From Puniceicoccales bacterium (GTDB taxonomy: Bacteria > Verrucomicrobiota > Verrucomicrobiia > Opitutales > JAIRLG01): a stretch of DNA of 32,000 nucleotides. Below are positions 1 to 3,000 of this stretch, one piece after another. The stretch spans positions 44,931 to 76,930 of the forward strand of contig JAITRB010000004.1 in assembly GCA_031288595.1 (NCBI GenBank), in the 5' to 3' direction. Position 1 is the stretch's first letter, and the number at the start of each line of letters is the position of its first letter. The position numbers are program-made.

Positions 1-3000
1 ATGTCGGAGGACGAGGATCTCATCGACGATGGCCATCATGCCGAGGCGGTGCGAGATGATGAGGACGGTCTTGTTCCGCACGAGCTGGCGAATCGCCTGC
101 TGAATGGCGTGTTCGCTGTGTGCATCGAGGGCCGAGGTGACCTCGTCCAGGACGAGAATTGGAGCCTGTTTCAGAAAGGCCCGAGCCAGAGCGATGCGCT
201 GCCGCTGTCCGCCGGAGAGAAAATTTCCATTCTCACCGATATCCGTCCGATAGCCCTGTTCGAGCTGGCAGATGAACTCGTGGGCATGAGCACTTTGAGC
301 GGCTGCGATGACCTCCTCCTCGCTGGCCTCCCACTTACCCCAGCGGATATTATCTCCTATACTGCCGCTCAGAAGCGTGGGGTTCTGGGGGACGAAGGCC
401 ATGTGGGCCCGCAGGTCTTCAAGGGCTAGCTCGCGGATGTCGAGGCCATCGATGCAGATTTTTCCCTGCCGCACATCGTAGAACCTCATGAGCAGATTGA
501 TCAGAGTCGTCTTGCCGGCACCGCTGCTGCCCACCAGGGCATAGATTTTCCCCGTTTCGAGTCGCCAGTCAAGGTCGTGGATGACGGTTTGCTCCGGAGT
601 GTATCCAAAAGAGATGTGCTGGAAATGCACCTCTCCGCGGAGCTCGCGTATGGGCACGGGACTTTTGGGATTCTGAATGCTTTCCGGAATTTCCAGCAGC
701 GACTGTATCCGGCTGAGCCCGGCAAACCCAGTCTGGATACGGGTAGCCAACCAGCCCAGTTTTTTGATGGGGTCATAGCTGAAGTAGAGGGCACCGGTTA
801 GGGCGATGAAGGTGTCGATGGGAATGCGATGCCGGTAGGAAAAGTACATGGAGAGGCTGACCCCGACGGCGGCGATGATTTCGATGATAGGAGAGACGAG
901 GATATTGTACTTGAGGGACTGCAAGGAGGCCCTGGAGAAGAGGCGACAAGCTTCTGCGAAACGCGCCGTTTCGCGCTGCTCCATGCAGAAGGCCCGGATC
1001 TCCTGGACAGCCGAGAGGTTGCGGCTCAGGCGCTCGGTGAGAGTGGCCGCTTCGCCCTGGACCTGGCCGGCCTTGAACCTGAGGCGGCGGTTCAGCGCAC
1101 GGACGGGTAGGATGATCAGCGGAAAGGCGGCAGCATAGAGGATCAACACGAAGACTTGGGATTGCTGGAGGCAGAGGTAGAGGAGGGCCCCCACCGAGGC
1201 GAGGAAGGTAATGGGCTGCGTGAGGATATTTTCAGCGATGTCCAGCAATGCCCCTTGCAGAAGGGCAGTGTCGTTCATCGCCCGGGATATGATTTCACCG
1301 GCCGAGGTTTTGTGGAAAAATTCCAGCGGTAGGCGCTGAATCTTGGCGAAGACCTGGACACGGATATTTTCCAGCAGGCGCTGCCCGCAGAAACCGGTGT
1401 AATAGGCACTGCAGAAGCCGGAAATTCCCCGTAGGCCCATCATGAGGAATGGACAGGCGCAGAAGAGAAGGATACAGAGGGGAGACTGGTGCGCAGCCGT
1501 AAAGACGTACTTGGCGGCTACTTTCAAGATGAAAGGCACGCCGAAACCACTGGAAAGTCCGCAGAGAATACCGCAGGCGATGGCGAAGAAGAGCTGCCTT
1601 CTCAGCTCCCTCAAGTAGCGGAAATAGGAGAACAGGGAACAGGAACGCTGCCAGAGGGATGGATTGCTCGCCGTTCGCGCTTTCATCAGGCCTTCAGCTA
1701 AGCGGCAATTTCGATGCGGTAAAGGGAATTGGCACTGGGTCATCGCGGCGTGTCCTCTAGCGCCGCTTGCGAATGTAGGCGATCTCTGCCCAGTCGCCGG
1801 ATGTCCGCAGAGAGGAGTAGAATTCCTGCCAGTATTTCTTGGCCAGAGGGTCGAAGACGGACTGAATCTCGGACCCTTCCTCCTTCAGGATGCCGCTCAG
1901 GGACAGCGTGCCGCCGGGCAGCACCGCGCGCAGCAGGAGGCCGGCGTGCAACTTCAGCACCGGCGCCAGGATATTGACGGATAGGAGATCGGCTTGGCGA
2001 CCGAGTAAGCCATAGGCGATGTCGGCCTCCTGGAAGTCGATGGCGGAATCCGGAATGCCATTGGACCTCGCATTCTCGCGGCTGACGCTAATGGCCTGTG
2101 GGTCGTGATCAAAGCCGAAAATTTTGCGAAAACCCAGCTTATAGGCGGCGATGGAGAGGATGCCCGATCCGCAACCGGCATCGATGTAACTCTGGGTATC
2201 GAGAAACTGGGGATGGAAGGTGATGGTGTCGACCAACCGTGCCAGGCAGAGCTGTGTCGTCTCGTGTGCTCCCGTTCCAAAGGCCAGGCCGGCGTCCAGA
2301 TAAATGCCCTGCTGGCCGTTAGGAATTCTGTAGTCCTTTCTCATCCACTCCGGCACGATGTGCAGGGGACCGATGGCGAAAGGCTTGATGAATTCCTTGT
2401 AGTGATTTTTCCAATCCGTTTCCTTCAGGACTTCCCTGGTGGGACTATAGAGCTTCAGGCGGGGGAGATGCCGGCAGAGCAATTGCCAGGCGGGTTCGAT
2501 GGAGGATTCGTCGGGAAAGTAGGCGCAGAGATGGACGGATTCTCCCGGCCTCTGCTCGAGGCTCCATTCCATGCCTTTCACTTGAATCAGGGCCTCCTCC
2601 ACAAGCGCCGTATCGGCCATCCCCAGCTCAACCCAGAATCGGTACATGCGAGATGATCCAAGCTAAATCATGAGACTTCGCAACGGTCACCTGCTACTTC
2701 CCCTACACCCTCCCTCCGTTGTCTTTGGATTCCGAAGGAATCCGGCCCGCTTCGCGGGCCGCAAGCTAAGAACAAAATCACTTTTGTTCTTAGCTTGCAA
2801 AGACAACGGAGGGCACTTCGCGCAAGTGCGAATATTCCTATCAGACATGGAGAGGAAAAAGTTTTCTCAGAGCTTCTCGCTGAGCAGGATCGAAAAAACT
2901 ACTTCCAGAGACCAATAGATCCGCTCCATGCTGGAGGCAGTCTTGAGCCGTAGTTACATTAATCCCTCCATCAACCGCTATGAAAAAGGGAAGCTTATGC

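What the first reader, a model, noticed from the sequence alone, without database searches (positions are those of the whole stretch)
2712..2813. Family of six intergenic elements that each fold into a near-perfect four-way junction
Six copies are present in 32 kb: E1 2712-2813, E2 3677-3774, E3 6827-6922, E6 13019-13115, E4 19070-19169, E5 28546-28663. Each has a 10-15 bp closing stem enclosing three consecutive hairpins: a short one (6-7 bp, 3 nt loop), a core GGCCCGC-NNN-GCGGGCC hairpin, and a long one (16-21 bp, 4 nt loop). E1, E2 and E3 have zero unpaired nucleotides at the junction, and only about 10 of ~100 nt are unpaired. This does not match the layouts I recall for REP/BIME, ERIC, Correia, RPE, attC or CRISPR repeats. 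No transposase, RAYT or integrase lies nearby. Copies occur in both orientations relative to flanking transcription and always lie 28-104 nt downstream of a stop codon. They never occur in the divergent promoter gaps. That placement fits either a mobile or copy-generated DNA structure (a branched cruciform or Holliday-junction mimic), or a strand-indifferent RNA 3'-end or stabiliser module.
Basis: seen in the sequence. Interest (0 to 1): 0.85.

Follow-up and report, generated by a model that had tools for sequence, protein, structure and literature searches.

The report
Four-way-junction palindromic repeat family
The six spots are real copies of an abundant, apparently undescribed kind of short repeated DNA, found here only in one group of Verrucomicrobia (Puniceicoccales). 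Every copy can fold into a near-perfect four-armed junction and has been kept intact far better than the DNA around it.

Summary
All six sites fold as closing stem plus three hairpins (z -11 to -14) and are the only strongly structured spots in the window.

E1, E2, E3, E4 and E6 form one polar sequence family (A): GCYGNCTTTS closing stem, short hairpin, GCCCGC-NNN-GCGGGC core, variable long hairpin. E5 belongs to a second family (B) with the same architecture but different sequence.

The window is a housekeeping chromosome segment syntenic with a Puniceicoccales MAG. About 85 such elements, in four sequence-unrelated families, lie in 230 kb of this clade. None was found in control genomes, plasmids, phages, IMG/VR, JGI metagenomes or Rfam.

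- Stems are 98.5% Watson-Crick, with heavy covariation and no strand asymmetry.
- There are no target-site duplications and no GTAG tag.
- Orthologous copies are 87-91% identical, while flanking intergenic DNA is unalignable and 4-fold sites are 74% identical.
- One copy is an in-frame 105-nt insertion in trxB of a relative, and one copy is nested inside another.

Best reading: a lineage-specific interspersed repeat that behaves like REP, MITE and RPE elements, was generated by copying, and is kept under selection for pairing. It is not a classical terminator, attC site, REP or MITE. The mobilising enzyme and any host role are unknown.

The parts
2712..2813 (+). E1, family A element. Closing 5' arm 2712-2726, short hairpin 2727-2743 (GGATTCC-GAA-GGAATCC), core hairpin 2744-2760 (GGCCCGC-TTC-GCGGGCC), long hairpin 2761-2798, closing 3' arm 2799-2813.
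   Evidence: Fold -48.9 (DNA) and -74.6 (RNA) kcal/mol, z -14.4 and -13.1. Covariance model 88.3 bits on + against 40.5 on -. Lies 27 nt after the rpe stop codon.
3677..3774 (+). E2, family A element. Near-duplicate of E1, on the other side of rpe.
   Evidence: z -12.6. 86.5 bits. 119-nt direct repeat 2698-2816 / 3661-3779, 89% identical.
2841..3584 (-). rpe (ribulose-phosphate 3-epimerase), bracketed by E1 and E2. It is compositionally atypical and is absent from the orthologous spacer of the relative.
   Evidence: Pfam PF00834. GC3 0.51 against 0.66-0.78 in neighbouring genes. In L091 the prmA-lptE spacer holds a single element (5631-5738) and no rpe.
6827..6922 (-). E3, family A element, canonical orientation on the - strand, between plsX and fabH.
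   Evidence: z -11.3. 73.9 bits on -. The orthologue L091:2213-2308 is 91% identical, with two fully compensated pair changes in the long hairpin.
13019..13115 (-). E6, family A element, in the convergent gap between the T2SS-F gene and thrS.
   Evidence: z -12.4. 81.3 bits on -. The orthologue L103:2932-3028 is 88% identical.
19070..19169 (+). E4, family A element, 56 nt after an acyl-carrier-protein ORF.
   Evidence: z -11.2. 67.2 bits. The orthologue L089:1098-1186 is 87% identical. The paralogue-like copy L031:3797 is 91% identical.
28546..28663 (+). E5, family B element. Same topology (12-bp closing stem GGCGCGATGGCC, then hairpins of 7, 16 and 17 bp) but a different sequence family.
   Evidence: z -11.1. 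Only 16.6 bits with the family A model. Shares the closing stem GCGCGA(T/C)GGCC with L009:800, L089:2923, L107:4279 and L058:3905/6475.

Best explanation
The elements are members of a lineage-specific family of interspersed palindromic DNA repeats. They work like REP, REPIN, MITE and RPE elements but have their own architecture.

Each copy is a palindrome of palindromes. An inverted-repeat closing stem (full consensus T-run-GGGGC-YGNC-TTTS) encloses three independent hairpins in a fixed order. Whenever the DNA is single-stranded, or is transcribed, either strand therefore snaps into a four-way junction.

Shown:
- The elements are DNA repeats scattered between core housekeeping genes.
- They arose by copying: there are paralogous subfamilies, a nested copy and an in-frame insertion.
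- They leave no target-site duplication.
- Once in place they persist at orthologous sites under purifying selection for base pairing.

Inferred:
- Copying is done in trans by an enzyme encoded elsewhere that recognises the folded single strand. The absence of duplications and terminal tags fits an ssDNA or HUH-type route, or a recombination-based route, rather than a DDE cut-and-paste route.
- The near-total Watson-Crick perfection, and the flipping of triloops between GNA and TNC, reflect constraint at the DNA level. Hairpin-templated correction (quasi-palindrome template switching) plus selection would produce this; a strand-specific RNA function would not.
- The elements accumulate behind genes because promoter gaps do not tolerate them.
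For: Family and abundance. A covariance model built from 38 copies finds 5 hits in the window (67-88 bits) and about 75 in 198 kb of three Puniceicoccales MAGs. It finds 1 weak hit in 622 kb of control loci. A fold scan finds 85 three-hairpin junctions of 75-120 nt in 230 kb, with a median of 13% unpaired. No junction of that quality (15% unpaired or less) appears in 616 kb of controls.

Architecture rather than sequence. Four sequence-unrelated families (A-D) share the plan of a closing stem plus exactly three hairpins. There were 89 three-branch hits, 3 two-branch hits and none with four branches.

Pairing. In family A there are 2933 Watson-Crick pairs against 45 G.T on one strand and 35 on the other. 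Nearly every stem position shows 3-4 Watson-Crick pair types at 97-100% pairing, against 31-50% after shuffling. RNAalifold recovers the junction, and 31 of 37 pairs show compensatory changes.

DNA-like features. G.T counts on sense and antisense strands are 4 and 6. Of 67 core triloops, 55 are C-GNA-G or its complement.

Mobility.
- The L088 element 3852-3942 sits inside the short-hairpin loop of element 3828-4027.
- L089:4020-4112 plus 12 nt is a 105-nt in-frame insertion after codon 6 of trxB, and the window lacks it.
- Subfamilies have 3 to about 17 paralogues at unrelated sites.

No target-site duplication: 0 of 85 have a repeat of 3 nt or more.

Constraint.
- Orthologous copies are 258/291 = 89% identical.
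- The rest of the same spacers is 19-38% identical.
- 4-fold sites of flanking genes are 74% identical.
- There is no excess of decayed core motifs in the window (44 against 40 expected).

Context. All flanking genes tested are housekeeping genes. The gap types are tandem 19, convergent 8 and divergent 3.
Against: - No mobilising gene was found, and whole genomes could not be scanned.
- No family A copies are more than 94% identical to each other, so recent transposition is not shown. Only family C has 99% copies.
- Only one clean filled-versus-empty site was recovered. The other length differences between genomes are messy.
- Persistence under selection at orthologous sites is what a host-useful module would show, not a purely selfish element.
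- The sampling of related genomes is biased, because loci were fetched for containing the motif.
- The related genomes are MAGs, so the trxB case could be a pseudogene or an assembly artefact.
Confidence: 0.68

Rival explanations
1. The element is a host cis-acting RNA module. Transcribed into 3' UTRs, the junction would act as a non-canonical, U-tract-less bidirectional terminator, or as a block to 3' exonucleases or an operon insulator. On this view the family is kept because the host uses it.
For: - All six copies lie 27-103 nt after stop codons in tandem or convergent gaps, and none lies in the window's divergent gaps.
- Canonical terminator-like sites (hairpin plus T-run) occur only at chance level in the window: 14 against 16.0 expected, and 19 against 15.2. 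Something else must therefore end or protect transcripts.
- Orthologous copies are conserved well above 4-fold sites and far above the neighbouring spacer, with compensatory changes.
- There are no decayed remnants.
Against: - No U-run follows the structure on either strand. The flanks are T-rich 5' and A-rich 3', which only extends the stem.
- Orientation relative to transcription is mixed, 12 against 7.
- G.U is as rare as A.C, at 1.5% against 1.2% of pairs, and is not enriched on the sense strand. That is unlike evolved structured RNAs.
- Loops flip between GNA and TNC.
- One copy sits at codon 7 of trxB with the reading frame kept. A strong terminator would abolish expression there.
- Nested copies and four unrelated families are easier to explain by mobility.
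Confidence: 0.2
2. The element is a structure-specific recombination site, analogous to attC. On this view the folded element is the substrate of a site-specific recombinase, and single genes move as gene-plus-element cassettes.
For: - E1 and E2 are direct repeats that bracket a single gene (rpe). The gene has atypical GC3 (0.51) and is missing from the same spacer in the relative, which holds one element.
- Several other loci show same-subfamily, same-orientation pairs that bracket one gene: L005, L016, L031, L035 and L036.
- Recognition by structure rather than sequence would explain four families with one topology.
Against: - No integrase or recombinase lies in the window or next to the sampled copies.
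- Copies occur in both orientations and between core genes such as SecA, FtsH and tRNA synthetases.
- There are no extrahelical bases, no R'/R'' core sites and no arrays.
- Each of E1 and E2 has self-matched arms rather than the hybrid arms expected after a crossover.
- The E1/E2 repeat extends beyond the element, which fits a segmental duplication, or a deletion in the relative by homologous recombination.
Confidence: 0.08
3. The structures are chance clusters of GC-rich hairpins, or ordinary terminators, with no family relationship.
For: GC-rich DNA does give many moderately stable multibranch folds. Controls gave 15 three-branch hits in 616 kb.
Against: - All control hits have 18% or more unpaired bases and no shared sequence.
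- The elements share conserved blocks, a fixed order of hairpins and model scores of 67-95 bits.
- z-scores are -11 to -14.
Confidence: 0.01

Closest known systems
REP / REPIN elements mobilised by RAYT (Y1 HUH) transposases; BIME clusters
   Same: Both are high-copy, extragenic, GC-rich palindromes that sit behind genes. Neither leaves a target-site duplication. Both persist for long periods at orthologous positions. In both, the partner enzyme is expected to be single-copy and to lie elsewhere in the genome. A relative in the same class, Opitutus terrae, is reported to be rich in GTAG-tagged REPs (PMC3733652).
   Different: A REP is one imperfect 20-40 nt hairpin with a GTAG or CGTC tag, and a REPIN is two inverted REPs. 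Here a roughly 100-nt unit has a closing stem plus three different hairpins in a fixed order. GTAG is not enriched (5 of 70). Hairpins 1 and 3 are unrelated, so this is not a REP doublet. No RAYT-like motif was found in the sampled DNA, though that was only a crude test.
Rickettsia palindromic elements (RPE)
   Same: Both are palindromic repeats of about 100 nt in a host-associated lineage, with no known transposase. Both are found between genes. At least one copy here is inserted in-frame in a protein-coding gene, as 35 extra codons in trxB. In-frame RPE insertion is cited from established knowledge (Ogata et al. 2000), not tested here.
   Different: There is no sequence relationship and the phylum differs. 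RPEs are described as simple long hairpins rather than strict four-way junctions. Only one in-frame case was seen here.
Bacterial MITEs (Correia/NEMIS, ERIC, BOX, RUP)
   Same: Both are short, non-autonomous, interspersed elements with terminal inverted repeats and strong predicted structure. Both form subfamilies.
   Different: There is no target-site duplication. No matching autonomous IS was found. The outermost ends are the least conserved part of the element. The interior is three perfect hairpins rather than a remnant of an IS.
Integron attC sites
   Same: Both are recognised, or conserved, as a folded single-strand structure with variable sequence. The E1-rpe-E2 arrangement resembles a cassette.
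   Different: There are no extrahelical bases, no RYYYAAC/GTTRRRY cores, no arrays and no intI gene. Copies occur in both orientations.

Membership tests
REP/REPIN-RAYT | Single short (20-40 nt) imperfect palindrome carrying a conserved GTAG or CGTC tag at one end | tested here: not met
   The units are 75-120 nt with four helices. GTAG occurs within 30 nt upstream in 5 of 70 copies, and CTAC downstream in 6 of 70.
REP/REPIN-RAYT | A REPIN is two copies of the same REP in inverted orientation around a spacer | tested here: not met
   Hairpin 1 (GATTCC, GAGCCC and similar) and hairpin 3 (the long, purine-rich arm) are unrelated. The element is polar: the reverse strand scores 24-40 bits against 67-88 forward.
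REP/REPIN-RAYT | A cognate RAYT (Y1 HUH) gene in the genome, typically flanked by its REPs | not testable with these tools
   Only 230 kb of the clade was in hand. A motif screen of it (HUH ... YxxxNP) found nothing.
REP/REPIN-RAYT | High-copy, extragenic, no target-site duplication | tested here: met
   About 1 copy per 2.6-6.4 kb. 0 of 85 have a target-site duplication of 3 nt or more.
MITE (derived from a DDE-type IS) | Terminal inverted repeats | tested here: met
   The closing stem of 10-20 bp acts as inverted termini. However, the outermost bases are the most variable.
MITE (derived from a DDE-type IS) | Direct target-site duplication flanking the element | tested here: not met
   The longest flanking direct repeat is 2 nt, in 4 of 85 copies. 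None is 3 nt or longer.
MITE (derived from a DDE-type IS) | A parent IS with the same termini | not testable with these tools
   None was seen in the window or the loci. Whole genomes were not available.
Integron attC | R''/L''-L'/R' arms with RYYYAAC / GTTRRRY cores and extrahelical bases | tested here: not met
   The stems are perfect, with no conserved bulges. The closing-stem consensus GCYGNCTTTS lacks the core motifs.
Integron attC | Co-oriented arrays next to intI/attI | tested here: not met
   Copies occur in both orientations and are dispersed among housekeeping genes. There is no integrase.
Intrinsic (Rho-independent) terminator | GC-rich hairpin followed immediately by a U-tract on the transcribed strand | tested here: not met
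   Flanks are T-rich 5' and A-rich 3' on both strands. The terminator scan reports only one inner hairpin of E5.
Any Rfam RNA family, or tRNA-like | Match to a curated covariance model, or a tRNA cloverleaf | tested here: not met
   There are 0 gathering-score hits. At E<=10 the only hits are unrelated microRNA, lncRNA and plastid 3'-UTR models, far below their gathering scores. ARAGORN finds no tRNA or tmRNA.
Rickettsia palindromic elements | Sequence membership in the RPE-1 to RPE-8 families of Rickettsia | not tested
   No RPE sequences were at hand. The different phylum makes membership implausible. The only resemblance is in behaviour, namely the in-frame insertion.

The most novel reading that the evidence does not exclude
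The most novel reading not excluded is this. The four-way junction itself is the functional unit, defined by structure rather than by sequence. Four unrelated sequence families have converged on 'closing stem plus exactly three perfect hairpins'. All would be substrates of a still unknown junction- or ssDNA-structure-specific enzyme, either a new kind of transposition or recombination machinery, or a chromosome-architecture or replication factor. They would be kept intact by selection acting on the host. That would make them a new class of bacterial genome element rather than an unusual REP.
Probability: 0.18. Interest if true: 0.85.

Novelty: new variant of a known kind. Interest (0 to 1): 0.6.

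Why it matters
Interspersed palindromic repeats such as REP, REPIN, MITE and RPE are among the least understood components of bacterial genomes. How they are copied, and why they persist, are open questions.

This family is an unusually clean case for three reasons.
- It has a strict, easily recognised topology that is shared by four unrelated sequence families.
- Its stems are almost perfectly Watson-Crick yet covary heavily.
- Its copies are demonstrably conserved at orthologous sites, where the neighbouring spacer has randomised.

Together these features separate structure from sequence as the thing being maintained. That gives a concrete handle for finding the responsible enzyme by phyletic co-occurrence. 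It also allows a test of whether such repeats are parasites, host tools or both.

There is a practical consequence too. The elements break short-read assemblies of these genomes: the Logan contig that carries rpe ends close to, or within, E1 and E2. They can also inflate ORF calls.

Tried and rejected
1. tRNA-like or known RNA. ARAGORN and Rfam found nothing.

2. Plasmid, phage or virus origin. BLAST against plasmids and phages found nothing. The 21 IMG/VR pattern hits are ordinary hairpins, not junctions.

3. Wider distribution. The 83 non-Puniceicoccales pattern hits in genomes are not junctions. A stricter pattern gave only 3 chance hits in JGI metagenomes.

4. Target-site duplications, a GTAG tag or a conserved flanking target. 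None was found.

5. A polar T-run as a poly(A)-like retro-insertion signature. This was rejected. T-richness 5' and A-richness 3' are symmetric on average and simply extend the closing stem.

6. The RuvC cleavage motif. The junction-proximal TTT(G/C) resembles the (A/T)TT(G/C) preference recalled from the literature. However, it occurs on only one of the four crossing strands and not in families B-D, so the idea was dropped.

7. RAYT search. A regex for the HUH ... Y motifs in six-frame translations of the loci found nothing. This is a crude test and coverage is low.

8. A transposase among genes bracketed by elements. All 20 ORFs tested are housekeeping genes or have no Pfam hit.

9. An IS5-like origin for a neighbouring 140-nt inverted-repeat element. 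The peptide resemblance to a transposase N-terminus, recalled from memory, got no Pfam support.

10. In-frame insertions in other genes. The elements lack stop codons in many frames, so only the trxB case is convincing.

11. Literature search. Searches for four-way-junction or cloverleaf repeats, for Puniceicoccales, and for the MAG names found no description of this family.
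Full report
**1. Checking the observation**

Each segment was folded alone with DNA or RNA parameters. Each gives one minimum-energy structure: a closing stem that encloses three consecutive hairpins. 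The z-scores against dinucleotide shuffles run from -11.1 to -14.4, and no shuffle out of 200 folds as well.

- E1, E2 and E3 have no unpaired junction nucleotide. E1 and E2 have only 10 unpaired bases in about 100.
- A sliding 110-nt fold of all 32 kb places every window more than 3 SD below the mean inside these six sites.
- The core palindrome GCCCGC-NNN-GCGGGC occurs five times against 0.37 expected.
- The gene map confirms the placement. Copies lie 27-103 nt after a stop codon in tandem or convergent gaps, and none lies in the window's divergent gaps.

**2. Corrections to the description**

- The elements are polar. In the order closing stem, short hairpin, core hairpin, long hairpin, closing stem, E1, E2 and E4 lie on the + strand and E3 and E6 on the - strand. 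A covariance model scores the correct strand at 67-88 bits and the opposite strand at 24-40 bits.
- E5 has the same topology but is not the same sequence family. It scores 16.6 bits, and only on an inner palindrome. Its closing stem GGCGCGATGGCC recurs in a second family in related genomes.
- E1 and E2 are a 119-nt direct repeat, 89% identical, that brackets the rpe gene.

**3. Context**

Every sizeable ORF in the window is a housekeeping gene or has no Pfam hit. The genes include prmA, rpe, lptE, fabH, plsX, a topoisomerase, thrS, trxB, ruvB, ileS, clpP, flhB/fliR/fliQ, tatD and gatB. There is no transposase, integrase or Y1 enzyme.

Rfam gives no gathering-score hit. At a permissive threshold it gives only unrelated models (microRNA precursors, a lncRNA region and a plastid 3'-UTR element) at 15-23 bits. 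ARAGORN finds nothing.

**4. Where else the elements occur**

One scan of 185,579 species-representative genomes used a pattern joining the closing-stem end to the core hairpin. It returned many single, unrelated hits. Multiple hits came only from three MAGs labelled Puniceicoccales: JAITKE (Pcl387_bin38), JAITIW (Pcl387_bin136) and JAIRRP (Ct408_bin121). I did not verify the habitat of these MAGs.

The window is syntenic with JAITKE contigs at 75-90% nucleotide identity. It therefore comes from a related species.

The same fold scan was run on the 28 Puniceicoccales loci and one Opitutae-labelled locus (which yielded no junction element), plus the window. It found 89 closing-stem-plus-three-hairpin junctions, 3 with two branches and none with four. 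Of these, 85 are 75-120 nt long with a median of 13% unpaired bases.

The same procedure on 616 kb from 82 other bacteria gave 15 three-branch folds. All have 18% or more unpaired bases and no common sequence.

A covariance model built from 38 family A copies finds about 75 copies in 198 kb of the three MAGs. It finds one weak 30.7-bit hit in 622 kb of controls.

Searches of plasmids, phages, IMG/VR and JGI metagenomes were negative.

**5. Anatomy**

Sorting the copies gives four families with the same topology and unrelated sequence.

- **Family A** (70 copies). Closing stem with conserved inner part GCYGNCTTT(G/C), and in full-length copies an outer T-run-GGGGC. A 5-7 bp short hairpin (GATTCC, GAGCCC, GATCCC, GATGCC, GCTTCC and others). 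The core GCCCGC-NNN-GCGGGC. A 12-25 bp long hairpin that is hypervariable but almost always perfectly paired.
- **Family B.** Closing stem GCGCGA(T/C)GGCC, with short, medium and long hairpins. E5 belongs here.
- **Family C.** 77 nt, with closing stem GGGGCCCCGGGAC. Copies are 97-99% identical.
- **Family D.** Closing stem TCCGGCGATCC.

Subfamilies defined by closing stem and long hairpin have from 3 to about 17 copies at unrelated sites.

**6. How the stems evolve**

- Family A has 2933 Watson-Crick pairs, with 45 G.T on the canonical strand and 35 on the other.
- Indexed from the junction, almost every stem position shows three or four Watson-Crick pair types at 97-100% pairing, against 31-50% when partners are shuffled.
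- RNAalifold recovers the junction from a plain MAFFT alignment, and 31 of 37 pairs have compensatory double changes.
- G.U is no better tolerated than A.C, and it is not enriched on the sense strand in tandem gene contexts (4 against 6).
- Of 67 core triloops, 55 are GNA or its complement TNC closed by C:G, where chance predicts about 12%. From established knowledge, d(C-GNA-G) is the hyperstable DNA mini-hairpin motif (Hirao and colleagues). Both polarities occur (20 GNA, 35 TNC), which looks like loop inversion.

I infer that the constraint is symmetric and DNA-like. Quasi-palindrome correction by intrastrand template switching is a known mutational process (Ripley; Lovett), and I invoke it here by inference. 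It would explain arms that stay perfect while diverging together. It cannot by itself explain the slow rate described next.

**7. Evidence for constraint**

Four of the five family A copies in the window (E2, or the E1/E2 pair, plus E3, E4 and E6) have orthologues at the same sites in JAITKE. Three pairs (E3, E6 and E4) were scored.

- Across those three pairs, the elements are 258/291 = 89% identical.
- The remainder of the same spacers aligns at 19-38%, which is effectively not at all.
- 4-fold degenerate sites in seven flanking genes are 71-78% identical, about 74% overall.

The differences that do occur lie at hairpin tips and loops, or are compensated. E3 has two double substitutions. E1's orthologue has the inner part of its long hairpin replaced by another perfect palindrome.

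The window holds no excess of degraded core motifs (44 against 40.3 expected at up to 3 mismatches). Copies are therefore either intact or absent.

**8. Evidence for copying and insertion**

- In L088, a complete family A element (3852-3942) sits inside the loop of the short hairpin of another element (3828-4027).
- In L089, a 93-nt element plus 12 flanking nucleotides, 105 nt in all, lies after codon 6 of trxB. The reading frame runs straight through it: MVQSED-35 aa-EKLIIIGSG, against MAQSEE-EKLIIVGSG in the window.
- No copy has a target-site duplication of 3 nt or more.
- GTAG or CTAC tags are not enriched.
- Flanks of paralogues share on average only about 2.5 nt.
- The twenty ORFs bracketed by elements in the related genomes are housekeeping genes (Adk, GAPDH, SufB, transketolase, ArgRS, FtsH, SecA, AccC, Ndk and others) or give no Pfam hit.

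**9. The rpe case**

In the window, E1 and E2 flank rpe. Its GC3 is 0.51, against 0.66-0.78 for its neighbours. In JAITKE the prmA-lptE spacer has one element and no rpe.

Either rpe entered at the element with duplication of a 119-nt segment, or the relative lost it by recombination between the two copies. The repeat extends about 14 nt beyond the closing stem on one side, and each copy has self-matched arms. I therefore favour a segmental event over site-specific crossover, but I cannot decide between the two.

**10. Interpretation**

The best-supported reading is a lineage-specific interspersed palindromic repeat family that behaves like REP, REPIN, MITE and RPE elements. The copies were generated by copying, lack target duplications, accumulate behind genes, and persist under selection for pairing.

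The family fails the tested defining features of each known group.
- REP: no tag and not a single hairpin.
- REPIN: not a doublet.
- MITE: no target-site duplication.
- attC: no extrahelical bases, core sites or arrays.
- Intrinsic terminators: no U-tract. Canonical terminator-like sites are at chance level in the window anyway.

The RNA 3'-end-module rival keeps some weight because of placement and conservation. It is weakened by the symmetric intolerance of G.U, the mixed orientation, the loop flips and the trxB insertion.

The enzyme that copies the elements, and whether the host benefits from them, remain unknown. Neither could be addressed without whole genomes or expression data.

**11. 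Verdict**

The finding is real, non-random and restricted to one clade, and I found no description of it in the databases or literature searched. It is a new architectural variant of the interspersed-palindromic-repeat kind.

There is a modest chance, about 0.18, that the junction topology marks a genuinely new structure-specific system.

Noticed in passing
window 2841-3584 (with 2698-2816 and 3661-3779): rpe has GC3 0.51 against 0.66-0.78 for its neighbours. It is bracketed by the E1/E2 direct repeat. The related MAG has one element and no rpe in the same prmA-lptE spacer (L091 5484-5763). This is either gene gain at an element or loss between two elements.
   Followed up: partly
L089 4008-4115 (orthologous to window ~16730): A family A element plus 12 nt, 105 nt or 35 codons, lies in-frame after codon 6 of trxB in the JAITKE MAG. 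The window's trxB lacks it. This resembles the behaviour of Rickettsia palindromic elements.
   Followed up: yes
L088 3828-4027: One complete element (3852-3942) is nested inside the short-hairpin loop of another.
   Followed up: partly
L103 3083-3742; also L107 ~1990-2050 and ~4394-4440, L043 ~196-209, L091 ~6690-6790: This is a separate repeat of about 140 nt with 14-18 nt terminal inverted repeats, (CTAG)AGGGTGTCGTCAAA ... TTTGACGACACCCT(CTAG). Its ends often abut junction elements, and one copy contains a junction element. A peptide it encodes (..DLSDELW..LLPDFDDTL*) reminded me of IS5-type transposase N-termini, but Pfam gave no hit.
   Followed up: partly
L036 1144-1218 and 3586-3662, L103 3524-3600, L107 4454-4530; L031 3509-3594, L103 690-780: Two further junction families occur, C (77 nt, 97-99% identical copies with shared flanks) and D. 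They have the same three-hairpin topology but sequences unrelated to families A and B. Neither is present in the window.
   Followed up: partly
L016 3864-4012 and other subfamily copies in JAIRRP/JAITIW: The most abundant subfamily (closing stem GGTTTRCCGCCTTT) is itself wrapped in an outer stem (GGGAGCA ... TGCTCCC). A conserved CCGTCTCC motif lies about 20 nt upstream. This adds a further layer of nested palindrome.
   Followed up: no
window 1-32000: Terminator-like sites (hairpin plus T-run) occur only at chance level: 14 against 16.0 expected, and 19 against 15.2. Sigma-70-like promoter matches are in excess in the second half of the window (12 against 4.5 +/- 2.0), clustering near 25.0-26.0 kb and 31.3-31.9 kb.
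   Followed up: no
L112 (Logan SRR14710895 contig, 981 nt) = window ~2750-3730: The only short-read contig carrying the identical Rpe protein is 981 nt long, with flanks of 144 and 93 nt around the gene. From the window spacing, I infer that it ends inside E1 and E2. That would be consistent with the repeats breaking assemblies.
   Followed up: no
L107 2071-3048; L031 4097-6485: The elements lack stop codons in several frames. Naive ORF calling therefore extends real genes, such as ndk and a roughly 570-aa gene, through one or two elements and produces spurious N-terminal extensions.
   Followed up: partly
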